A stretch of DNA of 64,000 bases from an uncultured Spirochaetota bacterium (GCA_963745235.1 CAVUXE010000028.1:111449-175448); one strand, 5' to 3'; shown: positions 29,969-48,492, counted from the first letter of the stretch. Numbers and translations: made by a program. The notes: a model not told the origin generated them from the letters alone.

Positions 29969-31864
29969 TCACTGCGCGTCTCTCAGTTCCTGGTATTGCG
30001 CAGTCTTTCTCAGCTTGTCGTTCTGCGCGGCGTAGTCATACGCAGTCTTTCCATCATGGGATTTTGATTTCCCATTCGCTCCCGCCTCCAGGAGCACTGA
30101 GATCACTCGGGGAGTCTGGTTGTACCTGGCCGCCATCATCAAGGGTGTCAAGCCGTTCGTGTCCCGGACTTCGATCTTTGCCCCCGCTTTGAGAAGCGCG
30201 GAGATGACGTCTGCGCTCTTGTTGTCGATGGCTGCCACCATCAACGGCGTCCAGCCATTCCTGTCCTGACTTTCGATATCTGCCCCGGCTGTCAGAAGCG
30301 CGGAAATGACGCCGGCGTTGCGGCTATGCATCGCGGCATACATGAGTGGCGTCCAGCCCTTCGCGTCCCGCGCGTCGACCTTTCCCCCCGCTTTGAGGAG
30401 CGCTGTGATGACCTCTGGGTTCTGGTTGTGCCTCGCCGCCACCATGAGCGGCGTCCGGCCGTCTTTGTCAGGTTCGTTGATATTCGCCCCCGCTCTCACG
30501 AGCATCGAGACGACCTCGGGATTCGGATTGGACCTGGCCACTGCCATCAAGGACGTCCTCACCTCCCTGGTGGGCCGGTCCACCTTTGCCCCAGACTGCA
30601 GAAGCGCGGAGATGACCTCGGGATTCGGATTATTCAGGGCCGCGCGGGTCAAAGGTGTCAGGCCCTCCTCGTCCCGGTCATCGACCTTCGCGCCCGCCTG
30701 CAGAAGCACTGTAATGACCTTGGAGTTCAAGGTATCAGAGGCTGCTATCATGAGGGGTGTCAATCCCTCCCCGTTGCGCTGGTCGACCTTTGCACCAGCA
30801 TGGATGAGCGAGCTGACCACGTCTGGATCAGGGTTGTGAGAGACAGCCACTGTCAAGGGCGTCCGGCCTTCCGCGTCCTGCTCGTCCACTTTGGCACCTG
30901 CCTGCAGGAGCGCGGAGATCACGTCCGCGTTCGGGCTGGAATAATCCGCCGCCCATAGCAAGGCCGTCCGGCCCTGTTCATCCCGGTCGTCGACTTTCGC
31001 TCCCGCCTGCAGGAGCGCAGAGACAACCTCGGGGTCCGGGTTATGAGAGACTGCCATCAGGGGCGTTCTGCCCTTTGCGTCCCGCGCCTCGACTGGCGCT
31101 CCCGCCCGCAGCAGTGTCGTGACGACCTTGGGATTATGATTGTGCAGGACCGCCATCATCAGGGGTGTCCAGCCGTCCGGGTCCTGCTCGTCGATCTTCG
31201 CTCCCGCCTGGAGGAGCGCTGAAATGACCTCGGGGTTCGGATTGTTCAGGGCCGCAATCATCAAGGGGGTCCGGCCACCAGGGTCCTGGTCCTCTACTTT
31301 CGCTCCTGCCTCCAGGAGCACGTTGATGACCTGCGGGTCCTCGCTCATGAAGGATGCAGTCATCAAGGGTGTCCAACCGTCGATGTCCCGCTCTTCGACC
31401 ATGGCCCCCGCCTGCAGAAGCGCGCTGATCACCTCGGGGTTCCGGTTGTGCAACACCGCTATCATCAAAGGCGTCCAGCCGTTCTTGTCCCGGTCGTTTA
31501 TGTTGGCGCCCGCTTTCACGAGCGCTGCGACGACCCCTGGATCCTGGTTGTAGGCTGCTGCCAACATCAGGGGGGTCTGGCTGCTCACTTCACGGTCGTC
31601 AATTTTCGCTCCTGCGTTCAAGAGCAGGGAGATGACGTGCGGGTCGCGATTGCTCCTGGCCGCGAGGATGAGGGGGGTCTGGCCATTCTGGTCGCGCTCC
31701 TCGATGTTGACCCCCGCTTGAAGGGCAGTCTTGATTTGTTCCAGCGTTCCGTCTTTCACCAGCTCCAGCAAGCTCAGAGCAGATGAATCCAACGATGCTG
31801 CAAGCAGCCCAAGGACGGCAAAGCTCATGATCAGCTGCCCGGAGCGCCTTCCCACGATCCCCAT
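29969..31864 (-). CDS. Ankyrin-repeat protein with probable signal peptide (~16-17 repeats)
   Basis: Repeated GxTPLMxAA..N.NPEVISALLQAGAKVDxRD units of mostly 35 aa; hydrophobic N-terminus. Confidence 0.93.
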   Translation of the reverse strand: MGIVGRRSGQLIMSFAVLGLLAASLDSSALSLLELVKDGTLEQIKTALQAGVNIEERDQNGQTPLILAARSNRDPHVISLLLNAGAKIDDREVSSQTPLMLAAAYNQDPGVVAALVKAGANINDRDKNGWTPLMIAVLHNRNPEVISALLQAGAMVEERDIDGWTPLMTASFMSEDPQVINVLLEAGAKVEDQDPGGRTPLMIAALNNPNPEVISALLQAGAKIDEQDPDGWTPLMMAVLHNHNPKVVTTLLRAGAPVEARDAKGRTPLMAVSHNPDPEVVSALLQAGAKVDDRDEQGRTALLWAADYSSPNADVISALLQAGAKVDEQDAEGRTPLTVAVSHNPDPDVVSSLIHAGAKVDQRNGEGLTPLMIAASDTLNSKVITVLLQAGAKVDDRDEEGLTPLTRAALNNPNPEVISALLQSGAKVDRPTREVRTSLMAVARSNPNPEVVSMLVRAGANINEPDKDGRTPLMVAARHNQNPEVITALLKAGGKVDARDAKGWTPLMYAAMHSRNAGVISALLTAGADIESQDRNGWTPLMVAAIDNKSADVISALLKAGAKIEVRDTNGLTPLMMAARYNQTPRVISVLLEAGANGKSKSHDGKTAYDYAAQNDKLRKTAQYQELRDAQ

Positions 31865-31964
31865 TCTCCATTTTTCCGGGCTCCTCGTCGATAGGCAATC
31901 TCCCCGTGCCGTCAACGGCCTTCATGGAAACCTTCAGTCAACCGGCCCTGCTTTCAACCCCGGT

Positions 31965-33182
31965 TCAGGAGCGGTTCCTCTTGGATGTAACGTCGATATA
32001 GACCGCCGCGATGATGACAAGGCCGCGGATGATGTACTGCCAGAAGACGTCCATGTTCATGACGCTCATCCCGTTCAACAGGCTGGCGATGATCAGCGAA
32101 CCGACGATGGCGCCGAAAATGGTCCCCTCCCCGCCCATGAGGCTCGTTCCTCCGATGACGCAGGAGGCGATGGCGTCCAGCTCATAGTTGACGCCTCCGC
32201 CGATGGTGCCTGCGGCCACGTAGCCGGTCAGGACGATCCCGGAAACTCCCGTCAAGAGCCCCATGAGGATGAACACCATGAACACGAGGCGGTTGATGTT
32301 GATTCCAGAAAGCCGGGTGGCTTCCTTGTTGCCGCCCAGCGCGTAGGTGTAGCGGCCGAACTTCGTGTTGTTGGCAAGGTACGTGAAGATCACGGCAACC
32401 ACGGCCATGAGGAGAACGGGGTTGGGGATGCCGCGGTAGCTGTTCATTATATAGATGAAAAAAATCACGAGACATGAGATGAGAAGGATCCTCAGCAGGT
32501 CCTGGTACACCGGCACGAGCTTGAATCCGAACTCCTTTCTCTGCTGCCTGCCGCGCAACACAAAGAAAACCACCAGCACCACGACAATAGCGCCCAGAAT
32601 CCACCCCACCATCGCGGGCACGTACCCCTGGGCAATGAGCCGGAAATCATCCTCGTAGATCGTCAGCGTTTTCCCCTGGGTGACGGCAAGCACTCCTCCC
32701 CGAAAGATCAACTGCCCTCCGAGGGTCACGATGAAGGCGGGGACTCCGAGGTAGGCAATGATCGTGCCCTGCCAGACTCCGACGATCAGGCCGACAAGAA
32801 GGGCAGACACGATTGCGATGATCGTATTGAGAACGCCCAGAGGTCCCGCCGCCATGGCGGGAAAAATGCCGTGCAGGATGGCCGGCATGGTATTCAACTG
32901 CAGGTAAGCGGTCACCGCGCTCACCAGCCCGGTCGAGGAGCCGACGGACAGGTCGATGTTCCCCGTAATGATGACCAGCACCATGCCGATCGCCAGGAAT
33001 GACACGATCGTGGTCTGGCGGAAAAGGTTCGAAAGGTTCCGCGGTTCGAAGAAAACCCAGTGGGTGAGGCTGCCAAAGAGAAGCCAGATCAGCGCAAGCG
33101 CGATGATCATGGTGTACGTCCGAATGTTCGTTCGGATACCGCGCGTGATGGTCGCCACCGAAGTCGTCTTGGTTGCCAGCAT
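31965..33182 (-). CDS. xylH: Monosaccharide ABC permease, XylH/GguB type
   Basis: GNIDLSVGS, PAFIVTLGG, GGNKEATRLSGIN, YELDAIASCVIGGTS. Confidence 0.85.
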   Translation of the reverse strand: MLATKTTSVATITRGIRTNIRTYTMIIALALIWLLFGSLTHWVFFEPRNLSNLFRQTTIVSFLAIGMVLVIITGNIDLSVGSSTGLVSAVTAYLQLNTMPAILHGIFPAMAAGPLGVLNTIIAIVSALLVGLIVGVWQGTIIAYLGVPAFIVTLGGQLIFRGGVLAVTQGKTLTIYEDDFRLIAQGYVPAMVGWILGAIVVVLVVFFVLRGRQQRKEFGFKLVPVYQDLLRILLISCLVIFFIYIMNSYRGIPNPVLLMAVVAVIFTYLANNTKFGRYTYALGGNKEATRLSGININRLVFMVFILMGLLTGVSGIVLTGYVAAGTIGGGVNYELDAIASCVIGGTSLMGGEGTIFGAIVGSLIIASLLNGMSVMNMDVFWQYIIRGLVIIAAVYIDVTSKRNRS

Positions 33183-34737
33183 TACCTCACCTCACTCGTT
33201 GCGCCTGCCAGACCTGTCGCCATGGCCATGAGCTTTTCCTGCGTCGCATCGCGCCGGTCGATGATTCCGGCGTTTTCCCCCTCGTGCATGACGAGGATCC
33301 GGTCGCTCATGCCCAGGATCTCGGGAAGCTCGGAGGACACGAGGATGATGGCGACCCCTTCCTCCGCAAGCTTGTTCATGAGCTTGTAGATCTCGTACTT
33401 CGCCCCGACGTCGATCCCCCGGGTCGGTTCGTCCAGGATGAGAACCTTCGGTTCGGACATCAGCCATTTCGCAATGACGACTTTCTGCTGGTTTCCGCCG
33501 CTCAGGCTGTTGACGAGGGCCTGCAACGTCGGCGTCTTGATGGCAAGATACGTCGCCATGGATTCGCACGCTTTGAGCTCCGCGTTCCTGTTGATGGAGA
33601 GGAACCCTGAGAATCGCTCCAGGTTCGGAAGCGACATGTTCTTGAGGATGGATTGATCGACGACGAGCCCCATGCGCTTGCGATCCTCCGGAACGAGGCT
33701 GATCCCGTTGTTCATGGCGTCGCGCGCGGAATCTATCTCCACGGGAGCACTGTCGAGAGTGACCTCTCCGCTGCGGTTCTGGCCGTATTCGCCGAAAATC
33801 GTCGTGACCAGCTCGCTGCGGCCCGAGCCCATGAGGCCGGCAATACCGAGGATCTCCCCCTTGCGCACGGAAAAGGAGACGTTCTTCACAACTTTCTTTC
33901 CCGCCTGATACGGGCTGTCCACGGACAGGTCTTTGACTTCGAGGACGACTTCCCCGGGGGACCGCGTCGCCGGTGGGGAATCGTTCCCGCATCTCCCGCC
34001 CGACCATCATCGAGATGATCTTTTCGTAGGTTGCATCTTTGGTGGCCAGGGTCCCGACGACACCCGCCGTCTCGAAGAACCGTGATGGTGTCCGTGATGC
34101 GGAAGAACTCCTCGACCTTGTGCGAGATGTAGATGCAGGTGACGCCGCGTTGCTTGAGATGGGCAAGGATGCCCATGAGGATATCGACTTCGGCCTCCGT
34201 GAGGGCGGAGGTGGGCTCGTCCAGGATCAGCACCCGCGCGTTCTCCGAAAGGGCCTTGGCGATTTCCACGATCTGCTGCTGGCCGACGCCCAGGTTGGTC
34301 ACGACGGAGGACGGGACAATGCGAAGGTTGTATTCATCGAGAACCTTTTGGGTCTCATGGTAGAGCCTGTTCCAGTTGATCACCCCGCTTGCTCCCGGTT
34401 CGCGGCCCAGGAAGATGTTCTGCCCCACGGTCATGAGCGGTATCAATGCGAGCTCCTGATAAACGATCGCTATTCCCTTTTCAATGGCCTGTCGTATCGA
34501 ATCCTTCCCGAAGCGCAGCTCCTCCCCGTTGTAGACGATGCGCCCCTCATAGGAGTCGAAGGGATACACGCCCGCGAGGATCTTCATCAGCGTGGATTTT
34601 CCCGCGCCGTTTTCCCCGCAGATCCCGTGGATCGTTCCTCGCTTCACGGAAAAAGAGACGTCGCTCAGAGCGACCACGCCGGGGAACTCCTTGGTCACCT
34701 GTTGAATGTCAAGGATGATGTCATTCATCTCGCTCAT
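33182..34737 (-). CDS. xylG: Monosaccharide ABC ATPase, XylG/GguA type (tandem NBD), frameshifts ~34065 and ~33955
   Basis: GENGAGKSTLMK, LDEPTSAL, YISHK; second NBD GLMGSGRSE, LSGGNQQK, LDEPTRGIDVGAK. Confidence 0.87.
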
Positions 34738-34850
34738 GCTGGCCATGCCCCTCGATACCGGGAAGCGAGGGTGCATGCCCTCGCTTCCCTCCTTGGTGAA
34801 GATGCAATTCCGAGCGCAAGCGGCTGCTCCGCGCTCGTCAGCGCGGTGAA

Positions 34851-35934
34851 CTACGGTCTCGGCCGGCTTCTCGAGTCCGGGACGTCCCGATACACGTCGT
34901 CATAGCTCTGGAAACCGCTCTTGACGATCTGATCGTAGACATTGGACTTGTCCACCTGGACGACCGGGAGGAACTTGCAGGGCACCTGGCCCATCTGCTT
35001 CTTGTCCAACGTGAGGTCGGCAAGGTTGTACATCTTCAGCCCTTCGATCTGCTGTCCCTTTGCAAGCTTGATGGCCATGTCGATGGCCATCGGCGAGAGC
35101 AGGCGGACGTCCTTGTAGACGGTGACGGTCTGCTCGCCCTGCACGATGGAGTTGCAGCCGGCGGCAGTGGCGTCCTGACCCGAAATCGGCACCTTGCCGG
35201 CCAACCCCTGGGCCTTCATGGCCTGGAGCGCGCCGCAGCGCGGTCCCATCGTTGGAGGCGACAACGGCATCGATCTTGTTGTGCTGCGCCGTGAGGACGT
35301 TCTCCATGATCTTGGTTGCCGTCGGGGGATCCCAGTTGTCTACCCACTGGTCAGCGACGATCTTGATCTTGCCGCTGTCGATGAGCGGCTTCAGGACCTC
35401 CATCTGGCCGTTGCGGACGAGGACGGCGTTGTTGTCCGTCGGGCTTCCGCCGAGGAGCATGAAGTTGCCGTGGTCCACGACCTTGATGACTCCGCGGGCC
35501 TCGGCGCGTCCGACCTCGGTGTTGTCGAACGAGATGTAGGCGGAGATGTTCGTCGACTTGATGAGCCGGTCGTAGGCGATGCACTTCACCCCGGCCTTTA
35601 CCGCCTCATCCACCGCCGTGGCTGCCGCCGCGCCGTCTTCTGCAATGATGATGATGACGTTCACGCCCTGCAGCGCCATGTTCTCGATCTGGTCGTTCTG
35701 CAGCTTCGCGTCATGGTTGGCAACCTGCGAGACAACTTGCGCGCCCTGGGCTGCGGCCAGCTTTGTCATGAGGGCCTGTTCGACCGGCCAGCGCTCGGTC
35801 GCGAAGTCAGAGAAGGAGAGGCCGATCTTGATGGCCCCACCCTTGGCGGGAGCCTTCTGCTCGCCCGTTCCAGACGCAAAGATCATGCCGCCCAGGAACA
35901 GGACGGTGAGCAGTACGAGATACGCTTTCCTCAT
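34851..35934 (-). CDS. xylF: Monosaccharide-binding protein, XylF/ChvE type, frameshift ~35237
   Basis: ATG at 35934 after AGGAGG; ATERW, AYDRLI, ISFDN, GGSPTDNNA, NDGTA, ISGQDA, QTVTVYKD. Confidence 0.85.
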
Positions 35935-35968
35935 AAGGAAACCTCCTTGAATTGAGCTACCCATCGAA

Positions 35969-35985
35969 TGCAATTCATGTGCCAA
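35969..35985 (-). promoter_or_regulatory. Sigma-54 (-24/-12) promoter of the xylFGH-like operon
   Basis: Minus strand reads TTGGCAC-ATGAA-TTGCA, matching the RpoN consensus, about 35 nt upstream of the xylF ATG. Confidence 0.88.
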
Positions 35986-36076
35986 GTGTCTTCCCTGAAT
36001 CGGTTGTACTAATTTGTTCCTGGAGAAGCAATTAAGGGAAGCGTTCCGGGTGGCAGCCGCGCGGCGGCGGGGGCAC

Positions 36077-36094
36077 TGAGTAGACCCTTACCCA
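36077..36094. promoter_or_regulatory. Putative enhancer (UAS) for the NtrC-type activator
   Basis: Imperfect palindrome TGAGTA-GACCCT-TACCCA ~90-110 nt upstream of the -24 box; extra TACTCA half-site at 36114. Confidence 0.45.
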
Positions 36095-36174
36095 TCACGG
36101 CTTTCTCATATTGTACTCATTTCCTCACGGGCATAGGACATTTGACCGCTTGTGCGGCAGTTTATCATGACGCT

Positions 36175-37491
36175 ATGAGCTTTACGATTCTCATCGTCGA
36201 TGACGAACGGGAGGTATGTCTCTCCCTTGGCGAAGTGCTCCGGTCCAAAGGCTACATGACCTTGCATGAGGATGAACCGCTCAAGGTGCTCTCTCTTCTG
36301 GAGCGAGAGAAGGTTGACGTGATACTCATGGACGTCCGCATGCCGGCGCTGGGCGGCATAGATCTCCTCAAGACAATCAGAAAGACGCGGCCCCTTGTCC
36401 CCGTCATCATGATTTCCGGGTACGCCTCCGTGGAGAGCACGGTGAAGGCAATGAAGTATGGCGCTTTGAACTATTTCGCAAAGCCCGTGCAGCTGCCGGA
36501 GCTGCTGCGGGAAATCCGCCACGTGGAGAGCTCCGTACGCATCAAGAGGCCCATTCCTGATGCGCAGACCATCGTCACCCAGAATTGGAGAATGGACGAG
36601 GTCCTCCGCCTGACGGAAAAAGCGGCTCCCACCGAGGCATCCGTGATAGTCCTTGGTGAGAGCGGCACGGGCAAGGAGCTGGTCGCAGATCTCCTTCATC
36701 ACGCGAGCAAGCGCAAGCACAAGTCGTTGATCAAGGTCAATTGCGCAGCCATTCCCGACAACCTGCTGGAGAATGAGATGTTCGGGCATGAGAAAGGGGC
36801 CTTCACCGATGCGCAGAGCCAGCAGAAGGGAAAGATCGAGCTGGCGGATGGAGGCACGATCTTCTTCGACGAGATCGGTGACATGAGCCTGCAGACACAG
36901 GCCAAGATGCTTCGCGTGGTGCAGCAAAAGCATTTCACCCGGCTGGGGGGTTCGGTCCCCATCAGCGTGGATTTCCGCATCATAGCGGCGACGAACAAGA
37001 ACATCGAAGAAATGATCGCCCAGGGAAACTTCCGCGAGGATCTCTACTATCGGCTCTCCGTCATCACGCTGAAGTTGCCTGCCCTTCGCGACCGAAAGGA
37101 GGACATCCTTCCCCTTGCCCTCCATTTCGCGAGGGAGTTCAACCAGGCCTACGGGAAGAGAGTGCTTGGCATCTCGGAGAGCGTGAGCGGGATGCTCGGG
37201 GAGCACACCTGGCCGGGCAACGTGCGCGAGCTGAAGAACATCATGGAGCGGGCAGTGATTTTCTGCGAAACCGAGCTGATCGAGCCCCGGGATCTTCCTG
37301 AGCAGTACCGCACCGTCAATCGACGCGCTGACGGCTTCGAGGCCATTCGGGAGTTCTCCTCGGAGAAGGCACGCTCCGTGATCCGCGAGGCGCTGCTGCA
37401 GACGAACGGCATCAAGGGGGAGGCGGCGCGACTCCTGAAAATCACCCGCAAGACCCTCTACAACAGGATGAAGCGACTGAACCTGACATGA
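36175..37491 (+). CDS. NtrC-family sigma-54-dependent response regulator (REC-AAA+-Fis HTH)
   Basis: ILIVDDE, LMDVRMP, GESGTGKE, NEMFGHEKGAFTDA, FFDEIG, FREDLYYRL, WPGNVREL, RKTLYNRM. Confidence 0.95.
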   Translation: MSFTILIVDDEREVCLSLGEVLRSKGYMTLHEDEPLKVLSLLEREKVDVILMDVRMPALGGIDLLKTIRKTRPLVPVIMISGYASVESTVKAMKYGALNYFAKPVQLPELLREIRHVESSVRIKRPIPDAQTIVTQNWRMDEVLRLTEKAAPTEASVIVLGESGTGKELVADLLHHASKRKHKSLIKVNCAAIPDNLLENEMFGHEKGAFTDAQSQQKGKIELADGGTIFFDEIGDMSLQTQAKMLRVVQQKHFTRLGGSVPISVDFRIIAATNKNIEEMIAQGNFREDLYYRLSVITLKLPALRDRKEDILPLALHFAREFNQAYGKRVLGISESVSGMLGEHTWPGNVRELKNIMERAVIFCETELIEPRDLPEQYRTVNRRADGFEAIREFSSEKARSVIREALLQTNGIKGEAARLLKITRKTLYNRMKRLNLT

Positions 37492-39329
37492 GCACATATC
37501 CTGCGCCGCCTTTGCTCGCTCCCTGTCACCAGTGCCTCCTGCGGATGCGCAATATCCACGTCTCATACAACGGCGTGCCGGCCTTGAAAGGGGTGGATTT
37601 CGACCTGTACGAGGGGGAGATCCACGCGCTGGTGGGCGAGCACCGCGCGGGCAAGTCATCCCTGGTCAAGCTGATGAGCGGCGCGGTCCAGAAGAGCCAG
37701 GGAGAGATCATCTACCGGGGGACGGAGGTGAAATCCTTTTCCCCGGAGAGCGCGATCCGCGCGGGCGTGGGGATGGTCTATCAGAATCTCAATGTGCTTC
37801 CGAGCCTCAACGCCATAGAGAACATCTTCGCCGGGCAGATGGTTCATCGCAGATTCCTGAGGCTCGACTACCGGCGCATGTTCGTGACCGGCCGAGAGCT
37901 CTTCAAACGAATGAACCTGGAGATCGACCTGGAGACGCCGCTGCGCCGCCTGTCGCAGGCACAGCAGCTCATGGTCGAGTTCGCCCGGATGCTCTTTCTG
38001 AATCCGCAACTCTTGATTCTCGACGAGCTTGCCAACAAGCTCACGCCGGAAGAGATGGGAACCATCTACGAAATCATGTTCGACTTCCGCAAGCAGGGGA
38101 AGAGCATCATCTACATAACCCACGACATAGAGGAGACGCTCAAGGTCGCTGACCGCGTGACCATCCTGAAGGACGGCTACCGCCGGGGGACGGAGCGCGC
38201 GGCGGATCTGGATCGCTTCCGCCTCTACGCGCTCACCTACTCCTTCGCGCTGGGCAAGAAGGAGATCGAAGCCAACCGCATGCAGTTCTACATGTTGAAG
38301 CGATACAGCGAAGACTTCATCCGCCACCTCTCCGCCGGCCTCGTCATCCTGGACGCAGCCGACGCCGTGCAGCTTGCCAACTTCGCGGGGATCGAGATCA
38401 TGCAGCCCGGTCCCGAGCAGCTGGCCACGCATTCCATCCAGGAGCTGCTCGCCGCGCTGCGCTTCCCCAACGCCGGTGAGATCCGCGAAAGGGTCGCCGC
38501 GAGGGAGGAGTATGTGTGGGAGGAGATCCGCATCGACGAAGACACACTGGTTCGCGTCGACGTCTTCCCGCTCCGTGATGACGAAAGCTCTTTCATCGGG
38601 ACCGCGGTTCTGATCCATGACGTCTCGATAGATCGCTACATGAAGGACTACATCATCAGGGCCGAGAAGATGGCAACGGTGGCTGAGGTGGCCGCGGGGG
38701 TGGCCCACGAGATCAACAATCCTCTCTTCATCATCCGCAACTACGTGGAGCTTCTGAAGGACAAGAGGCTCGATCCCGATGGGAAGGAGAAGCTGCGGAA
38801 GATCCAGAAGGAGCTCGGCCGGATCTGCGAGATCACCGAGAGTCTTCTCTCATTCTCCAAGGTCAAGGAGCTGCCGGAAAGTCGGACGAACCTGGTTGAG
38901 GTTGTCGACGATGCGATACTCCTCCTGCAGCACAATGTCTCCAAGAAGAACATCCGCCTTGACAAGGATCTGTGCGAGCAGCGCGTGGAAATCGTGGGCG
39001 ACGAAAACCGCCTGAAACAGCTTTTCCTGAACCTGCTTCTCAACAGCATCGACGCCGTGCTTGATGGCGGCACTGTACGGGTCAGGGTGGCCGCCAGCAG
39101 GGAGGACCGTTTCGCGGAAGTGACGGTCTCCGACAATGGGTACGGTATCCCCGCCGAAATTCAGGGCAAGATCTTCGATCCCTTCTTCAGCACGAAGGTA
39201 AACAAGAAGAACGTGGGCCTGGGTCTGTCGATTTGTCAGCACATCGCCGAGGCGCATGAGGGGATCATCACCTTCACGAGCGTGCCCGGAGAGCTCACCG
39301 AGTTCAAGGTGAAGCTGCCGCTCCGATAA
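37488..39329 (+). CDS. Fusion of sugar-ABC ATPase-like domain, PAS-like domain and histidine kinase
   Basis: One 613 aa ORF: ALKGVDFDL.EGEIHALVGEHRAGKSS, MVYQ, LSQAQQ, LILDE, YITHD; then AGVAHEINNPL, QLFLNLLLNSIDA, DNGYG, FDPFFSTK, GLGLSI. Confidence 0.92.
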   Translation: MSTYPAPPLLAPCHQCLLRMRNIHVSYNGVPALKGVDFDLYEGEIHALVGEHRAGKSSLVKLMSGAVQKSQGEIIYRGTEVKSFSPESAIRAGVGMVYQNLNVLPSLNAIENIFAGQMVHRRFLRLDYRRMFVTGRELFKRMNLEIDLETPLRRLSQAQQLMVEFARMLFLNPQLLILDELANKLTPEEMGTIYEIMFDFRKQGKSIIYITHDIEETLKVADRVTILKDGYRRGTERAADLDRFRLYALTYSFALGKKEIEANRMQFYMLKRYSEDFIRHLSAGLVILDAADAVQLANFAGIEIMQPGPEQLATHSIQELLAALRFPNAGEIRERVAAREEYVWEEIRIDEDTLVRVDVFPLRDDESSFIGTAVLIHDVSIDRYMKDYIIRAEKMATVAEVAAGVAHEINNPLFIIRNYVELLKDKRLDPDGKEKLRKIQKELGRICEITESLLSFSKVKELPESRTNLVEVVDDAILLLQHNVSKKNIRLDKDLCEQRVEIVGDENRLKQLFLNLLLNSIDAVLDGGTVRVRVAASREDRFAEVTVSDNGYGIPAEIQGKIFDPFFSTKVNKKNVGLGLSICQHIAEAHEGIITFTSVPGELTEFKVKLPLR

Positions 39330-39403
39330 CGGGTCTCCTGCTTGACCGCGGAGGACCTCCTCTGTAGCTTCGACTGTGCTGATTCTCAAACCAAGGAGGG
39401 AAC

Positions 39404-43531: not shown

Positions 43532-45771
43532 TTGAAGGATTCGAAGCCTCTGTTCGCCCAACATATCAGCGCATATGGAATAGCCGTGGCTGCGGTGGCG
43601 GCAGCATTTGCGGTTCGACATGCTCTGTCCCTGCTCGTCGGGCATGGGCTGCCGCCCTTCATCACCTTCTATCCTGCTGTCATGCTTATCGGGCTTCTGG
43701 CGGGGATGGGGCCCGGGTTGCTTGCGAGCACCGGTGCAGCCCTGGTGACGGTCTTCTGGATCTTCCCCGCCGAGGGCCACGTCCGAAACACGCTGGCCGC
43801 TGATGCGCTGGGGTTGGCTCTCTTCTCCTCCATGGGAGTTTTCATGAGCGTCGTTGCCGAGCTCTACCGGAGAGCGAGGCAGCGGGCAGAAGACTACCGG
43901 CAAGAGATGTCCCTGCGTGAGAGCGAGGCGAGATTCTCTACCGTGTTTCAGTCCAGTCCGGTCGGCATGAGCATCACGGGCGTGGCCGATGGGCGGTACC
44001 GTGACGTCAATGAGGCTTTCGCAAGCCTGTTCGGCTACACGAGGAAAGAAGCAGTTGGCCGCACGTCGCTGGAGCTGAACCTGTGGGTTTCGACGAAGGA
44101 CCGAGACAGTCTTCTCCGCGCGCTGCGAGAGCACGGCAGCGCGCGGAATTTCGAGGGGCGTTACCGCAGGAAATCCGGAGAAACTTTGACTGCCCTCGTC
44201 ACGGCGGAAACAATAGAGATACCGGTGAGCGCTGCTACTGGACGATCTTCCAGGACATCACCGAGTGGAAACGCGCGGAGGAGAAGTTCCGGCTCGTGGT
44301 GGAAACGGTCCAGACCGGGATGATCATGGTGAATGGTGAAGGAGAGATCCTTCTTGTGAATGCGCAGGTGGAACGGCTCTTCGGTTACAGTCGTTCAGAG
44401 CTGCTTGGCCTCCCCATCGAGGTTTTTATTCCCGAGCGTTTCCGCTCGAGCCACCCCGGGCATCGAGCCGGGTTTTTCGCCCAGCCGCAGGCTCGCTCCA
44501 TGGGGGCGGGCCGGGACCTGCACGGGCTGCGCAAGGACGGGAGCGAGTTCCCCGTGGAGATCGGACTGAGTCCCTTGGAGACCGCGGAGGGCATCCGGGT
44601 GATGGCCTCCGTCATCGACATTACAGAGCGCAAACGCGTTGAGACCGTCCTGCGGGAAAGCGAAGAGCGCTTTCGCGGGACTCTGGAGAACATGCTGGAA
44701 GGCTGCCAGATAATCGGTTTCGACTGGCGATACATCTATATCAACCCGGCGGCGGAGGCGCACAACCGTCGACCGAAGGAGGAGCTCCTGGGGAGCCGGT
44801 ACATGGACATGTGGCCCGACATCGAGGCGACAGGGGTGTTCGCGGTCATTCGACGCTGCATGGAAGAGCGCGTTCCCCAGGCCATGGAAAACGAGTTCAC
44901 CTTTCCCGATGGGACCGAGGGCTGGTTCGACCTGCGGATGTCTCCCGTGCCGGAGGGGGTCGTCATACTCTCCTATGAAATAAGCGAGCGCAAGCGGTCG
45001 GAGAAGGAGATTCGCACTCTGAACGCTGAGCTTGAGCGTCGCGTGCAGGAACGCACGGCGGAGCTGGAAGCGGCAAACAAGGAGCTGGAGGCGTTCGCGT
45101 ACGCGGTCTCGCATGACCTTCGCGCCCCGCTGCGCGCGCTCAGCGGTTTCAGCCACGCGCTCCAGGAGGATTATGCGGCGGCACTGACGGGGGAAGCCGG
45201 CGAATACCTGGACCAGATCTCCCAGGCCAGCGTGAACATGGGAGAGCTGATTGACGGAATCCTGAGGCTCTCCCGCTGCACCCGCGGCGAGATGCAGCGC
45301 CAGGACGTTGATCTTTCGGCCCTGGCAGAGGGGATCATGAAAGACCTTGCCAGGGCGGAGCCCGGACGCCGCGTGGTCTGGGCAGTCGAGCCGGGCCTGA
45401 CCGCCCGCTGTGACGCCAAGTTGATGGAGGTAGCCCTGGGCAACCTTCTTGCGAACGCCTGGAAGTATACGGCGCTCACATCCCAGCCGACCATCCGGTT
45501 CAGCAGCGAAACACTCGATGGAGAAACCTGGTTCTGCGTGACTGACAACGGCGCAGGGTTCGACATGAAGCACGCCGCCAGGTTGTTCCAAGCCTTTCAG
45601 CGTCTTCATCGCCAGGATGAGTTTCCTGGAATCGGCATCGGGCTCGCAACGGTTCAGCGCATCATCCGTCGGCATGGAGGCGCCATCCGCGCCGCAGCCG
45701 AGCCGGGAAAAGGGGCCGCCTTCAGCTTCAGCCTGTCCCCCGCCGATGCTCCGAACACGGAGGAATCATGA
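43532..45771 (+). CDS. Multi-PAS sensor histidine kinase with N-terminal membrane (DUF4118-like) domain, frameshift ~44220
   Basis: PFITFYPAV...GPGLLA; three PAS domains; [31 protein letters not shown]. Confidence 0.88.
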
Positions 45772-46209: not shown

Positions 46210-48492
46210 ATGGCAGACACACCAATCAGAATCCTGGTAATCGAAGACAGCAGGGCCGACTTTCTGCTGATAGAGCGTTTCCTCAAGAAGCAGCTCCCGC
46301 CTTTCCTCTCGCGGCACGTTGCGAGGGATGCCGAGCTGGAGACCGCCCTGGCTGAGGAACCGTGGGACATTGTCCTGTCAGATTACTCCATCCCCGGAAT
46401 GGACTTTCGCAGGAACCTGGACCTCATCCATAACCGCACCCCCGGTCTTCCTATCATCCTGGTGTCAGGAAGCCTGGGAGAAGAGCAGGCTGTCTCCCTC
46501 GTCAAACAGGGAGTCTGGGACTTCGTTCTCAAGGACAATCTGGCGCGTCTGGCGCCCGCGATCAAACGCGGACTCCAGGAGGCGGCGGAGCATCGCGCGC
46601 GATCGGAAGCGGAGGTTGCTTTGCGCACGCTGGTCAACGCCATTCCAGAGTCGGCTCTCCTCATCGACGCGGAGGGAATCATCCTTGCGGCGAACGAGAC
46701 AATTGCGCGGAGGCTTGGGAAGATACCGCGGCAGCTTGTCGGCGCCCGAATCTATGACCTCCTCCCGGTCGATGTGGCCGAAATCAGGAAGAAGCATGTC
46801 GCGGAGAGCGTCCGCACGGGCGAGCCTCTTCGTTTCGAGGATGCCCGCTTCGGCAGGAACATCGACAATTACGTGCACCCCATCAAGGATGAGCAGGGAC
46901 GGGTGAAGCGGCTTGCCATGCTCGGCGTGGATGTGACGGAGCGCAAGGAAACAGAGGAGAAGCTGAGACAGCAAGCCGCCCTTCTGGATGTCACTGCGGA
47001 CGCGATAGTCGTGAAGGACCTGGAGAATCACGTTCTCTATTGGAACAAGAGCGCTGAAAGAATCTACGGCTGGCGCGCTGACGAGACCCAGGGGAGAAGC
47101 ACATTCGAATTCCTGTATTCTGAATCGGACCTCCCCGATGCAACGCGAGCCCGAAGGGAAACGCTGGAAAAAGGAGAATGGCGCGGCGATCTCCGCCAGC
47201 GCGCGAAGGACGGCAAGGATCTCGTGGTCGAAGGACATTGGACCCTCATGCGAGACGAGCAGGGAGAACCGAAAGGGATCCTTTCGGTCAACAGCGACGT
47301 CACGGCTCGGCGTTCCGTCGAAGCGCAGCTCCTGAGATCGCAGCGGCTGGAAAGCCTGGGGACCCTGGCCGGAGGAATCGCCCATGACCTGAACAACGTC
47401 CTCTCACCCATCCTCATGGGGGTGGAAGGGCTTTCCTTCCATAACCCTGACGATTCCACGCGAAACATCCTCACGATCATCAAGACGAGCGCTCAACGGG
47501 GCGCGAATATCGTTCGACAAATTCTCAATTTCGCGCGCGGCATGGAAGGAAACTACGGAGAGCTGCAGCTGAAGCACGTTCTGCGGGAAATCGAAGATAT
47601 TATCCGGGAAACCTTTCCCCGATCGGTCGCGCTGAAAATGGAAATCCCCCTGGACCTCTGGCCGGTCGTCGGGGACGCCACCCAGTTGCACCAGGTCCTG
47701 ATGAACCTGGCCGTCAATGCCCGGGATGCAATGCCGAATGGCGGGTGGCTTACCATTTCCGCGGAAAATGTTCAGCTTGACGAGGCCTACGCACAAATGA
47801 ACATCGAGGCCAGGCCGATCCGCTACGTCGTGCTGATGGTCGAAGACACGGGTACGGGGATACCCGCGGGAGTTCTGGAGAGAATCTTCGATCCGTTCTT
47901 TACGACGAAAGAGCCGGGAAAAGGGACCGGCCTGGGTCTTTCAACCGTCCGTTCCATCGCGAGGAGTCACGGTGGGTTCATCAACGCTTACAGCGAGCCC
48001 GGCAAGGGTGCCGCATTCAAGGTCTACGTTCCGGCAGCCGAGCAGGGATTGACTGAGCACGCTGAGGGCCCCGAGGAGGGAATCCCGATGGGAAAGGGGG
48101 AGCTCATCCTGGTGGTCGAAGACGAGATTTCCCTGCGTGACATCACTCGCCAGATCCTCGAGTCCTACGGGTATCGGGTCATGACGGCAAGCGACGGGAC
48201 CGATGCCCTTGCCCAGTACATCGCCAGGAAGGGCGAGATACGGCTCGTCATAACGGACATGATGATGCCCTACATGGATGGCGCGGCAACCATCCGGGCC
48301 ATCCGGAGGGTGGATTCCGAGGCGCTCATCATTGCAACAAGCGGTCTGATGGTCGGCGAGTACGCACAGGAGGCAAAGGGTCTCGGAGTGCAGGCGTTCC
48401 TGGCAAAGCCGTACACGGCCGAGACGCTTCTGCAGACCCTGCGGGACGTGCTGGAGGCTCGATCCAGAACTGAGGGCGGGACGCTTTCATGA
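46210..48492 (+). CDS. Hybrid histidine kinase REC-PAS-PAS-HisKA-HATPase-REC
   Basis: [32 protein letters not shown], terminal ITDMMMP. Confidence 0.94.

What the first reader, a model, noticed from the sequence alone, without database searches (positions are those of the whole stretch)
37488..39329. Histidine kinase whose input domain is a sugar-ABC ATPase fold
Seen: one uninterrupted 613 aa ORF joins an RbsA/MglA/XylG-type nucleotide-binding domain (~aa 20-255) to a PAS-like segment and an NtrB-class kinase core (H-box HEINNPL at ~38706). No transmembrane segment is evident. The NBD keeps the Walker A Lys (GEHRAGKSS versus GENGAGKST in the neighbouring XylG), Q-loop, Walker B DE and H-switch, but has an altered P-loop and D-loop (DELANKL versus DEPTSAL) and no second NBD. 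Known: transporter-coupled kinases (BceAB-BceS, PstSCAB-PhoU-PhoR, ChvE-VirA) use separate proteins. Inference: this kinase may dock on the XylH permease, or pair with XylG, and report the transport cycle. I do not recall this architecture being characterised.
Basis: partly seen in the sequence, partly recalled or inferred. Interest (0 to 1): 0.92.

Follow-up and report, generated by a model that had tools for sequence, protein, structure and literature searches.

The report
Sensor kinase with ABC-ATPase input domain
A soluble bacterial sensor kinase carries, as its input end, one ATP-binding domain copied from a sugar-transporter motor; it always sits next to such a transporter, so it may show directly how a transporter can signal to a kinase.

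Summary
ORF 37488-39329 (+) is one 613-aa protein: ABC_tran, PAS, HisKA, HATPase_c, with no membrane segment.

It is not an assembly chimera. Contigs from three independent metagenome studies bridge the NBD/PAS junction without gaps. 119 of the 120 best homologues listed carry the same fusion. 110 of the 150 best 50%-identity representatives are full length with both motifs. The family is mainly spirochaetal, and this genome has four paralogues.

- **NBD type:** it is NBD1-like, from CUT2 sugar ATPases. It keeps Walker A/B, the catalytic Glu and the Q-loop, but has no LSGGQ signature and a changed D-loop.
- **Gene context:** an NtrC-type regulator gene lies directly upstream in 27 of 27 assessable cases. 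CUT2 ABC genes are adjacent in 27 of 28. A sigma-54 -24/-12 element precedes the neighbouring operon in 25 of 28, an ABC operon in 24.

Best reading: a two-component system that drives the neighbouring sugar-ABC operon. Nine literature searches found no description. I rate it a new variant of transporter-coupled sensing.

The parts
31965..33182 (-). xylH/gguB-like permease of a CUT2 sugar ABC importer (405 aa)
   Evidence: Pfam BPD_transp_2, E 3.7e-33. Best NCBIfam match is GguB, 349.9 bits, below its cut-off of 450.
33182..34776 (-). xylG-like two-NBD ATPase. It reads as two ORFs in the window because of two assembly indels (extra bases at 33967 and 34066).
   Evidence: Both pieces match ABC_tran. 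NCBIfam matches xylose/GguA ATPase halves. Frame changes are seen. Contigs of X1, X2 and X5 lack one base at each site.
34851..35934 (-). xylF-like periplasmic sugar-binding protein, ATG 35934 with GGAGG 7 nt upstream. There is one assembly indel (extra base at 35235).
   Evidence: Peripla_BP_4, E 1e-40. TIGR02634 xylF, 249.8 bits, below its cut-off. Frame change and true stop at 34851-34853. All four runs laid lack one base at 35235.
35970..35984 (-). Sigma-54 type -24/-12 promoter element TGGCACATGAATTGC, 36 nt upstream of the xylF ATG
   Evidence: It is the only zero-mismatch match of 61 matches in the 64-kb window. Position read. Equivalent elements lie in the three paralogous loci and beside 21 of 24 kinase genes in other genomes.
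36142..37491 (+). NtrC/AtoC-type sigma-54-dependent response regulator (REC, Sigma54_activat, HTH_8). The likely true start is ATG 36175 (MSFTILIVDDE). Its stop overlaps the kinase start (ATGA).
   Evidence: Pfam: Response_reg 3.5e-26, Sigma54_activat 3.7e-69, HTH_8 3.1e-9. NCBIfam AtoC and NtrC matches are below cut-off. ATGA overlap confirmed.
37488..39329 (+). NBD-PAS-HisKA-HATPase_c cytoplasmic sensor histidine kinase (613 aa)
37533..38240 (+). Input domain, aa 16-251: a single NBD1-type ABC nucleotide-binding domain. It has Walker A at aa 50-57, Q99, Walker B plus catalytic Glu at aa 176-180 and H212. The signature is degenerate (LSQAQ, aa 155-159) and the D-loop is changed.
   Evidence: Pfam and NCBIfam matches. 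AlphaFold block-mean pLDDT is 75-92 over aa 11-240. Foldseek to transporter NBDs: LptB TMt 0.87, 1ji0 TMt 0.82. Motif comparison. Tree.
38322..38627 (+). PAS domain, aa 279-380, preceded by helix aa 259-278 and followed without a break by the DHp helix
   Evidence: PAS_4, E 8.7e-6. Secondary structure. It is the least conserved part of the family.
38685..39323 (+). Kinase core: HisKA at aa 400-460 with phospho-acceptor His407 (nt 38706-38708), and HATPase_c at aa 504-612 with N, G1 and G2 boxes
   Evidence: N515, N519, D549, G551, G553, G577 and G579 are present in 111 of 111 aligned members; His407 is too, but it was a selection criterion.

Best explanation
This is the sensor half of a sigma-54-dependent two-component system that switches on the adjacent xylFGH-like sugar ABC importer.

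**The kinase.** It is soluble. Its input module is a single ATP-binding NBD that descends from the first (catalytic) NBD of CUT2 sugar ATPases. A short linker and a helix join the NBD to a PAS domain, and the PAS domain runs straight into the dimeric DHp/CA kinase core.

**Proposed mechanism.**
1. The two NBDs of a kinase dimer sit on the cytoplasmic coupling helices of the (XylH)2 permease, at the place normally taken by XylG.
2. Docking of sugar-loaded XylF on the permease closes the two NBDs around ATP.
3. This closure is passed through the N-terminal helix and the PAS domain to the DHp helices and raises autophosphorylation of His407.
4. The phosphate goes to the NtrC-type regulator.
5. 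The regulator activates the -24/-12 promoter in front of xylF.

**Shown here:** the architecture; its conservation; NBD1 ancestry; retention of the ATP-binding motifs; loss of the signature motif; conserved synteny with the regulator gene, the CUT2 operon and the sigma-54 promoter; and rpoN in the genome.

**Inferred:** that the regulator acts on that promoter; that the NBD binds ATP; and, least certain, that the NBD docks on the permease rather than acting alone.
For: **The fusion is real**
- One ORF of 613 aa.
- Contigs from three studies cross the domain junction with 0 gaps.
- 119 of the 120 best homologues listed carry ABC_tran together with HisKA, at 48-100% identity and about 600 aa.
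- 121 of the 150 best 50%-identity representatives are 570-660 aa. 110 of those have both a Walker A and an H-box.

**NBD ancestry and state**
- In a tree of 60 NBDs, the 24 kinase NBDs form one side of a branch (SH-aLRT 99). They sit next to NBD1, not NBD2, of the cognate ATPases.
- Motif consensus: the kinase NBD shares GE(N/H)GAGKS, vYQ and I(T/S)H with NBD1. NBD2 has GsGRtE, pEDR and iSSE, but it carries the only LSGGNQQK.
- Counts in the 111-sequence alignment: D179 111/111, E180 101/111, Q99 96/111, H212 73/111.
- In the unfiltered 20-sequence alignment A1, G50, G55, K56, Q99, D179 and E180 are invariant.

**The kinase looks active**
- N, G1 and G2 box residues are present in 111 of 111.

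**Circuit**
- The NtrC-type regulator has REC, Sigma54_activat and HTH_8 and its stop overlaps the kinase start.
- The only perfect TGGCAC-N5-TTGC in the window lies 36 nt before the xylF ATG.
- rpoN is present in the genome: 229.8 + 155.2 bits in two adjacent frames.

**Conserved linkage**
- All 4 paralogues in this genome have the regulator gene directly upstream, a CUT2 set adjacent, and a -24/-12 element with 0-1 mismatch in front of that set.
- Across 24 kinase genes in 23 loci of other genomes:

| Feature | Count |
|---|---|
| Regulator gene directly upstream | 23 of 23 assessable |
| CUT2-type ABC genes in the flank | 23 of 24 |
| -24/-12 element (≤1 mismatch) in the expected intergenic region | 21 of 24 |
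| Such matches elsewhere in the 377.5 kb examined | 5 |

- The adjacent transporter varies in sugar type, and in having a two-NBD or a one-NBD ATPase (L107, L118). It always has a Peripla_BP_4 binding protein and a BPD_transp_2 permease where I checked.

**Several paralogues per genome, each next to its own transporter, argue for transporter-specific sensing.**

**Geometry**
- In the AlphaFold model the NBD is followed by helix aa 259-278, then PAS, then a continuous DHp helix at aa 380-424.
- The best fold matches of the C-terminal part are PAS/LOV-histidine kinases such as 4gcz.
Against:
- Almost every linked transporter keeps its own complete ATPase. The kinase NBD would therefore have to compete or alternate with it.
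- One of 24 loci (L119) has no ABC genes within about 9 kb. There the sigma-54 element precedes a Big_5/ice-binding-like gene, and a LacI-family regulator gene, an FGGY-family sugar kinase gene, a class II aldolase-family gene and araA follow the kinase. Adjacency to a transporter is thus not obligatory.
- 3 of 24 loci (L005, L107, L108) have no -24/-12 match at ≤1 mismatch.
- A homodimer of NBD1-type domains has no signature motif in either site, and a third of the family lacks the H-loop His. Canonical closure and hydrolysis may therefore not occur.
- The variable PAS domain could itself be the sugar or metabolite sensor.
- A search of longer proteins found no natural fusion of this NBD type to a permease. 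It gave one hit at E ≤ 1e-30, a LivG-type protein at 26% identity. The tool itself says that finding none is weak evidence.
Confidence: 0.5

Rival explanations
1. The NBD is a free-standing nucleotide switch and does not touch the permease. ATP (or the ATP/ADP ratio) drives dimerisation of the two NBDs and gates the kinase. Sugar specificity comes from the PAS domain binding the imported sugar or a metabolite. The system still regulates the neighbouring ABC operon.
For: - Walker A/B are conserved, while the signature motif is absent and the H-loop His is present in only 73 of 111 members. This is the pattern of a binding switch, not a motor.
- PAS is the most variable domain, as expected if it sets ligand specificity.
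- L119 has no adjacent transporter.
- The transporters keep their own ATPase.
Against: - It is hard to see why a transporter-type NBD1 would be kept in particular, including the Q-loop Gln (96 of 111) and the ENIF segment after it. That segment is shared with both NBDs of the cognate ATPases. From recalled ABC structures, it lines the coupling-helix groove.
- A pure energy sensor would not need one paralogue per transporter (4 in this genome).
- No cofactor or ligand motif was recognised in the PAS domain. It gives only weak generic PAS matches.
Confidence: 0.27
2. The kinase NBD pairs with the transporter's ATPase rather than with the permease. The NBD2 of XylG (or a one-NBD ATPase) supplies the LSGGQ signature that the kinase NBD lacks, and the kinase reads out the ATPase cycle.
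For: - The kinase NBD has every catalytic motif of NBD1 but no signature. NBD2 of the linked ATPases carries the only canonical LSGGNQQK.
- The linkage to ABC ATPase genes is conserved.
Against: - In XylG, NBD2 is tethered to its own NBD1, which would have to be displaced.
- The D-loop of the kinase NBD (DE-iSnklTP or DE-LEkLs) differs from the DEPT-type D-loops of both NBD1 (DEPTsaL) and NBD2 (DePTRGID). This argues for a changed partner interface, not a conserved one.
Confidence: 0.12
3. The kinase NBD is a working alternative motor. The kinase dimer itself energises sugar uptake through XylH and signals as a by-product.
For: Walker A, Walker B, the catalytic Glu and the Q-loop are retained.
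Against: - There is no signature motif in either site of a homodimer.
- The H-loop His is lost in 38 of 111 members.
- A complete ATPase gene is present in nearly all linked operons.
Confidence: 0.05
4. The fusion is an artefact of an error-prone assembly, such as a lost stop or a frameshift joining a half ATPase gene to a PAS kinase gene.
For: The assembly does contain indel errors: three in xylF and xylG. rpoN and the C75 paralogue are also split across frames.
Against: - Independent contigs of three studies cross the junction with 0 gaps and 0-1 differences.
- The fusion is present in 119 of the 120 listed homologues.
- It is present in 12 of 300 other genomes of the phylum.
Confidence: 0.01

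Closest known systems
BceS-BceAB type transporter-dependent sensing (passage seen in the discussion of PMC12070737; otherwise recalled)
   Same: A histidine kinase has no ligand-binding input of its own. It depends on an ABC transporter encoded next to it, and its regulator controls that transporter's expression.
   Different: - BceS is a membrane protein that contacts the permease BceB through its transmembrane helices. The transporter is an exporter-type system for peptide antibiotics, and its NBD (BceA) is a separate protein.
- Here the kinase is soluble and an NBD is covalently part of it.
- Here the transporter is a binding-protein-dependent sugar importer and the regulator is sigma-54 dependent.
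PhoR-PhoU-PstSCAB phosphate signalling (abstracts of PMC9239213, PMC13577022 and PMC4423584, seen in the search listing only)
   Same: The state of an ABC importer is reported to the cytoplasmic PAS domain of a histidine kinase. The domain order NBD-(adaptor)-PAS-DHp-CA is functionally the same chain.
   Different: - In Pho the chain is three proteins (PstB, PhoU, PhoR) and PhoR is membrane anchored.
- Here the NBD is fused directly in front of the PAS domain, no PhoU-like gene was seen, and the transporter keeps a separate ATPase.
XylFII-LytS-YesN and ChvE-VirA: sugar-binding proteins that feed histidine kinases (passages and tables of review PMC8050422)
   Same: A Peripla_BP_4 sugar-binding protein is the primary sugar sensor. 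In the XylFII-LytS case the output is the xylFGH operon.
   Different: - Those kinases have periplasmic ligand-binding domains that touch the binding protein directly.
- This kinase has no periplasmic or membrane part, so the signal would have to cross the membrane through the permease.
- In that review 'ATPase' and 'nucleotide binding domain' each occur 0 times.
CUT2 two-NBD sugar ATPases (XylG, RbsA, AraG, MglA, GguA)
   Same: The input domain matches their first NBD at E 1e-55 to 1e-41. It shares the Walker A, Q-loop and H-loop consensus of NBD1 and its already degenerate signature.
   Different: - The kinase has a single NBD and no NBD2, so no LSGGNQQK is available in cis.
- The D-loop is changed.
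- All NCBIfam scores are far below the equivalog cut-offs (for example 169.5 against 699 for the xylose ATPase).
- The NBD is fused to a kinase.
AtoS/NtrB-class PAS kinases with NtrC/AtoC-class regulators
   Same: - aa 269-612 aligns with AtoS over PAS, HisKA and HATPase_c (E 3.7e-66).
- The partner has REC, Sigma54_activat and HTH_8.
   Different: - The AtoS score of 223.8 is below the cut-off of 646.
- AtoS has a membrane-anchored N-terminus (recalled), whereas this protein has an NBD there.
MalK-MalT, and the P-loop N-terminal domain of KdpD (both recalled, not checked here)
   Same: - MalK: an importer NBD doubles as a regulatory surface for a transcription activator.
- KdpD: a P-loop nucleotide-binding domain sits in the cytoplasmic input region of a histidine kinase.
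   Different: - MalK is not fused to its target and acts by sequestration.
- The KdpD domain is not an ABC NBD, and KdpD is a membrane protein.

Membership tests
HisKA-type sensor histidine kinase | HisKA and HATPase_c domains above the Pfam gathering scores | tested here: met
   HisKA scores 50.9 bits against a cut-off of 26.9. HATPase_c scores 89 bits against 26.4.
HisKA-type sensor histidine kinase | Phospho-acceptor His in an H-box, plus N, G1 and G2 boxes of the ATP lid | tested here: met
   HEINNPL with His407 is present. N515, N519, D549, G551, G553, G577 and G579 are in 111 of 111 members. The H-box itself was a selection criterion.
HisKA-type sensor histidine kinase | Autophosphorylation and transfer to a cognate regulator | not testable with these tools
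   Only the adjacent, translationally overlapping regulator gene is seen.
AtoS equivalog (NF008468) | Whole-protein score above the curated cut-off | tested here: not met
   The score is 223.8 bits against a cut-off of 646. The match covers aa 269-612 only.
ABC ATPase nucleotide-binding domain (PF00005) | Pfam match above the gathering score, and an NBD fold | tested here: met
   87.7 bits against 25. The AlphaFold NBD superposes on LptB (TMt 0.87) and 1ji0 (TMt 0.82).
ABC ATPase nucleotide-binding domain (PF00005) | Walker A GxxxxGK[ST], Walker B hhhhDE, Q-loop Gln, H-loop His | tested here: met
   GEHRAGKS, LLILDE, Q99 and H212 are present in this protein. Family counts: D179 111/111, E180 101/111, Q99 96/111, H212 73/111. 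Walker A is found by regex in 117 of 121 length-matched representatives.
ABC ATPase nucleotide-binding domain (PF00005) | LSGGQ signature motif | tested here: not met
   The sequence is LSQAQ here. In the family only L155 is kept (88 of 111), and positions 156-159 are variable.
CUT2 sugar-transport ATPase (XylG/RbsA/GguA equivalogs) | Two tandem NBDs and a score above the equivalog cut-off | tested here: not met
   Only profile positions of roughly 1-246 of about 500 are matched. The best score is 186.8 against 850 (YtfR), and 169.5 against 699 for the xylose ATPase. There is no second NBD.
Sigma-54-dependent two-component system | Regulator with REC plus a sigma-54 interaction AAA+ domain plus an HTH | tested here: met
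   Response_reg 3.5e-26, Sigma54_activat 3.7e-69, HTH_8 3.1e-9.
Sigma-54-dependent two-component system | rpoN in the genome and a -24/-12 promoter at a target | tested here: met
   rpoN lies at C9:13216-14569 in two frames (229.8 + 155.2 bits; each piece alone is below the 277 cut-off). TGGCACATGAATTGC lies at 35984-35970(-). The consensus used is recalled.
Transporter-coupled (co-sensing) kinase, BceS-like in logic | The kinase gene is conserved next to the transporter it depends on | tested here: met
   4 of 4 paralogues in this genome and 23 of 24 kinase genes in other genomes.
Transporter-coupled (co-sensing) kinase, BceS-like in logic | Physical and functional dependence of the kinase on the transporter | not tested
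No experiment was possible.

The most novel reading that the evidence does not exclude
The binding protein, the permease dimer and the NBD-kinase dimer together form a transmembrane receptor built from importer parts. The conformational coupling that normally turns substrate docking into NBD closure and ATP hydrolysis is used instead to switch a histidine kinase. The signature-less NBD pair would act as an ATP-glued clamp. That would make this a new class of histidine-kinase input, an 'ABC transducer'. It would also be a natural covalent model of how PstB/PhoU-PhoR-like and BceAB-BceS-like systems pass information from transporter to kinase.
Probability: 0.4. Interest if true: 0.85.

Novelty: new variant of a known kind. 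Interest (0 to 1): 0.74.

Why it matters
How transporters talk to kinases is a long-standing question. The known cases (Pst/PhoU/PhoR, BceAB/BceS and others) involve separate, mostly membrane-bound proteins that are hard to reconstitute.

Here nature has fused a transporter NBD to a soluble PAS kinase. The family has at least 110 clusters at 50% identity, a simple predicted output (a sigma-54 promoter in front of the sugar importer) and several paralogues per genome.

That gives a system that can be tested directly:
- one purified protein plus a reconstituted permease and binding protein;
- point mutants with textbook expectations (Walker A Lys, catalytic Glu);
- natural specificity pairs for swap experiments.

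It also bears on annotation. These proteins are currently named 'ATP-binding cassette domain-containing protein' or 'AtoS' by automatic pipelines.

It is also relevant to how saccharolytic spirochaetes in soil, peat and wetland samples choose among their many sugar importers. This genome gave dozens of matches to CUT2-type NBDs.

Tried and rejected
Nothing was folded, so there is no verdict on docking.

**Searches that led nowhere**
- Natural fusions of this NBD type with more domains (longer proteins, region 14-262) gave one LivG-type hit at 26% identity. That is no Rosetta-stone evidence, and the tool calls a blank weak evidence.
- Two long representatives were checked. P0128 (851 aa) is the same architecture with a duplicated HisKA region. 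P0249 (829 aa) is a two-NBD ATPase joined to a binding protein. Neither is informative.
- The search for related loci chose H-box patterns, so 73 of its 80 loci were unrelated kinases or an NBD-only match. Only L001-L007 were used.
- My first ORF-dump script was not used, because high GC gives too many spurious ORFs.

**Literature**
- Nine full-text searches found no paper describing an ABC NBD fused to a histidine kinase.
- The 2005 signal-transduction census (PMC1183210, passages) mentions ABC only in another sense.
- PMC12070737 (passages) says only AtcSR and Hpk2/Rrp2 have been characterised in T. denticola.
- Subscription journals and supplements were not searchable, so 'not in print' means 'not found in these searches'.

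**Things not done or rejected**
- I did not search for stand-alone short forms of this NBD, so I make no claim that split forms are absent.
- RNA contigs of X19 cover 37922-38121 and parts of xylF. Contigs from an RNA library do not show transcription, so I do not use them as evidence.
- Artefact reading: rejected (see rivals).
- A role for Arg53 in changed ligand specificity: rejected as a family feature, because 74 of 111 members have Gly there.

Full report
**The object**

The window has an uninterrupted ORF at 37488-39329 (+) that encodes 613 residues. Pfam finds four domains:
- ABC_tran, aa 33-181, 1.4e-24
- PAS_4, aa 279-380, 8.7e-6
- HisKA, aa 400-460, 1.6e-13
- HATPase_c, aa 504-612, 3.5e-25

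NCBIfam aligns aa 15-260 with only the first half of the two-NBD sugar ATPases (YtfR, AlsA, AraG, RbsA, XylG). It aligns aa 269-612 with AtoS. All these scores are far below the equivalog cut-offs, so no curated family covers the protein.

The highest 19-residue hydropathy mean is 1.36, which indicates no membrane helix.

An AlphaFold model built on a 20-sequence alignment has mean pLDDT 77.8. It shows:
- an NBD at aa 16-250 (block-mean pLDDT 75-92 over aa 11-240);
- a low-confidence linker at aa 252-265;
- a helix at aa 259-278;
- a PAS fold at aa 283-378 that runs into a long DHp helix at aa 380-424;
- the catalytic domain.

Foldseek matches the N-terminal part to transporter NBDs (LptB TMt 0.87, 1ji0 TMt 0.82, MalK). 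It matches the rest to PAS/LOV histidine kinases such as 4gcz. No solved chain has both parts. By sequence, no CUT2 ATPase appears among the solved structures. The best hit is an amino-acid importer NBD at 9.3e-29.

**Artefact or real?**

The assembly is error-prone. xylF changes frame once and xylG twice. rpoN and one kinase paralogue are also split between adjacent frames.

I laid Logan contigs of three DNA runs from three studies, plus one RNA library, on 33100-39400.
- All three DNA runs lack one base at 33967, at 34066 and at 35235. These are exactly the three frame-change sites, so the transporter genes are intact in nature and the window carries insertion errors.
- Over the kinase the contigs show no gaps.
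- The NBD/PAS junction is bridged by X2 record 24, X5 record 31 and X1 record 7.

Independently, 119 of the 120 best homologues listed carry ABC_tran with HisKA at about 600 aa and 48-100% identity. The one exception is a 483-aa piece.

In the library of 50%-identity representatives, 121 of the best 150 are 570-660 aa. Of those 121, 117 have a Walker A, 113 have an H-box and 110 have both. The list is cut at 150, so the family is larger than that.

Names given by sources are 'Spirochaetia bacterium', 'Treponemataceae', 'ATP-binding cassette domain-containing protein' or 'AtoS'.

In 300 other genomes sampled from the phylum, 12 have a full-length match at E ≤ 1e-60. Only four candidates per genome were scored, so this is a lower bound. 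A KSB3 genome also has one (L005).

**What kind of NBD?**

I built a tree of 60 NBDs: 24 from kinases, and 18 NBD1 and 18 NBD2 from the linked ATPases. The method was quick IQ-TREE with LG+G4. I left out kinases that my extraction returned shorter than 550 aa (L001, L005, L108, L120) and ATPases under 480 aa.

The kinase NBDs form one side of a branch with SH-aLRT 99. They lie next to NBD1 sequences and split into two subfamilies of 13 and 11 rows.

Motif consensus by group shows how the CUT2 ATPase is organised:

| Motif | NBD1 | NBD2 |
|---|---|---|
| Walker A | GENGAGKST | GsGRtE |
| Q-loop | vyQE | pEDR |
| H-loop | IsH | iSSE |
| Signature | weak (L.v.qqQ) | LSGGNQQK |

The kinase NBD follows NBD1 in Walker A (GEH[R/G]AGKS), Q-loop and H-loop. 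Its signature region is even more degenerate than that of NBD1. Its D-loop is changed: DE-iSnklTP or DE-LEkLs, against DEPTsaL.

In a 111-sequence alignment of diverse representatives:
- D179 is in 111 of 111.
- E180 is in 101 of 111.
- Q99 is in 96 of 111.
- H212 is in only 73 of 111.
- Position 53 is G in 74 and R in 25.

Walker A and the H-box were selection criteria for that set, so their invariance there is by construction. In the unfiltered 20-sequence alignment A1, G50, G55, K56, Q99, D179 and E180 are invariant.

The kinase core residues are invariant. The PAS region is the least conserved part.

My reading is that this is an ATP-binding domain under strong constraint. Hydrolysis is probably slow or dispensable, and the dimer interface has changed.

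**Context in the window**

On the minus strand lie three genes of a sugar importer:
- xylH/gguB-like permease, 31965-33182;
- xylG-like two-NBD ATPase, 33182-34776;
- xylF-like binding protein, 34851-35934.

Divergent from them are an NtrC/AtoC-type regulator at 36142-37491 (likely start 36175; REC, Sigma54_activat, HTH_8) and the kinase. The kinase ATG overlaps the regulator's stop.

The only perfect match to TGGCAC-N5-TTGC in the 64 kb is at 35984-35970 on the minus strand, 36 nt before the xylF ATG. The total of 61 matches at ≤2 mismatches is at chance level (65.8 expected), so the argument rests on position and perfection. rpoN is present in the genome.

**Is the context conserved?**

This genome has four paralogues: C28 (this one), C9 at 49% identity, C35 at 30%, and C75, which is split by a frame change. 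Each has the regulator gene directly upstream on the same strand and a CUT2 set adjacent. Each also has a -24/-12 element with 0-1 mismatch exactly in front of that set.

For other genomes I used the 7 full-length loci and 16 stretches fetched around the matches. That gives 24 kinase genes in 23 loci:
- The regulator gene is directly upstream in 23 of 23 assessable cases. L118 runs off its contig.
- CUT2-type ATPase or permease genes are in the flank for 23 of 24.
- A -24/-12 element (≤1 mismatch, GG and TGC fixed) lies in the expected intergenic region for 21 of 24. L005, L107 and L108 lack it.
- Only 5 such matches lie elsewhere in the 377.5 kb examined.

Three kinase genes are interrupted in their assemblies (L001, L108, L120).

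The exception is L119. It has a Big_5/ice-binding-like gene behind the sigma-54 element. A LacI-family gene, an FGGY-family sugar kinase gene, a class II aldolase-family gene and an L-arabinose isomerase gene follow the kinase. The sugar theme remains, but no transporter is adjacent.

In L107 and L118 the linked importer has a one-NBD ATPase (262-281 aa). It has the same Peripla_BP_4 binding protein and BPD_transp_2 permease families. The constant partners are therefore the binding protein and the permease family, not the ATPase format.

**Mechanism**

Well supported: this is a two-component system whose output is sigma-54-dependent transcription of the neighbouring sugar importer.

The input is where inference starts. 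Four points lead me to favour docking of the two NBDs of a kinase dimer on the permease dimer:
- The domain is a transporter NBD1 in particular.
- It keeps the Q-loop and the following ENIF segment, which it shares with both NBDs of the cognate ATPases. From recalled ABC structures, that segment lines the coupling-helix groove.
- Each genome has one paralogue per transporter.
- The kinase has no membrane or periplasmic part, although the sugar is outside.

In this model, docking of the loaded binding protein would close the NBDs around ATP. The N-terminal helix and the PAS domain would carry that movement to the DHp helices. I give this about 0.5.

The main rival (0.27) is a permease-independent ATP-driven clamp, with the variable PAS domain sensing imported sugar. 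A pairing with the ATPase's NBD2, which holds the only signature motif, is possible (0.12). A motor role (0.05) and an artefact (0.01) are unlikely.

**Comparison and novelty**

The logic resembles several known systems:
- BceS-BceAB (passage in PMC12070737).
- PhoR-PhoU-PstSCAB, where the importer state reaches the PhoR PAS domain (abstracts of PMC9239213, PMC13577022, PMC4423584).
- Kinases fed by binding proteins, XylFII-LytS and ChvE-VirA (passages of PMC8050422).

In all of those the parts are separate proteins, and the kinase is in the membrane or has a periplasmic domain.

The protein fails membership of AtoS and of the CUT2 ATPase equivalogs, and it lacks the ABC signature motif. Nine literature searches found no description of the architecture.

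The Atlas search returned its own cluster (62 members, commonest Spirochaetota). As leads only (score 0.84), it also returned clusters with ABC_tran, GAF_2 and HisKA in Actinomycetota. I rate the finding a new variant of a known kind (transporter-coupled sensing) with interest 0.74.

**Limits**

- No experiment was possible and there is no complex model.
- Promoter calls rest on a recalled consensus.
- Neighbour calls rest on tblastn with this window's proteins, plus Pfam on selected loci.
- The genomes are a sample, and many are incomplete assemblies.
- Supplements were closed and not consulted.

Noticed in passing
window 33967, 34066, 35235; G000 C9:13216-14569; G000 C75:69471-71238: The assembly carries single-base insertion errors. 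Three in xylG and xylF are shown by independent contigs. rpoN and one kinase paralogue are split between adjacent frames in the same manner. Apparent pseudogenes in this genome should therefore not be trusted.
   Followed up: partly
window 36004-36015 and 36111-36122: A direct repeat TTGTACT(A/C)ATTT occurs twice, 107 nt apart, between the sigma-54 element and the regulator gene. It could be an enhancer or operator site, or it could be chance.
   Followed up: no
L006, L112, L113, L116, L117, L120: intergenic regions just before the regulator gene: In loci of the second kinase subfamily, an inverted motif of the type TGTGTA-N(6-8)-TACACA recurs close to the regulator start. I saw it by eye in the sequences printed. 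It is a possible binding site for the regulator.
   Followed up: no
L119:4800-16126: This is the one kinase/regulator pair without an adjacent ABC transporter. The sigma-54 element precedes a secreted-looking Big_5 plus ice-binding-like protein. A LacI-family gene, an FGGY-family sugar kinase gene, a class II aldolase-family gene and an L-arabinose isomerase gene follow the kinase.
   Followed up: partly
L007:2950-9800: Two regulator/NBD-kinase pairs lie back to back, each next to its own CUT2 operon. One of these operons is the closest relative of the window's xylFG (60-70% identity).
   Followed up: no
L107:5692-8773; L118:2571-8849: The sugar importers linked to the kinase here have a one-NBD ATPase (262-281 aa) instead of the fused two-NBD type. 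They have the same binding-protein and permease families. L118 has two such sets in tandem.
   Followed up: partly
Atlas clusters (no coordinates): Clusters annotated ABC_tran plus GAF_2 plus HisKA (about 850 aa, 166 members) and ABC_tran plus HisKA plus HATPase_c (826 aa) are commonest in Actinomycetota. They appeared at feature score 0.84. This is a lead that NBD-kinase fusions may have arisen elsewhere. I saw no sequences.
   Followed up: no
window 29969-31915 (-): A 648-aa ORF next to xylH is made almost wholly of about 33-residue repeats that look like ankyrin repeats (G-TPLM-A ... VI-LL-AGA). It follows a hydrophobic N-terminus. I read this by eye and did not scan it.
   Followed up: no
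window 44083-45771 (+) and 46210-48492 (+): Two further large signalling ORFs lie downstream. Read by eye from their translations (not scanned), they look like a multi-PAS histidine kinase and a REC-PAS-kinase-REC hybrid. The neighbourhood is rich in sensory genes.
   Followed up: no
G000 whole genome: The search with the kinase found 159 matches. Several dozen of them are in open frames of about 500 aa that match its NBD, as CUT2-type two-NBD ATPases do. This is an unusually large set of sugar importers, in keeping with four dedicated NBD-kinases.
   Followed up: no
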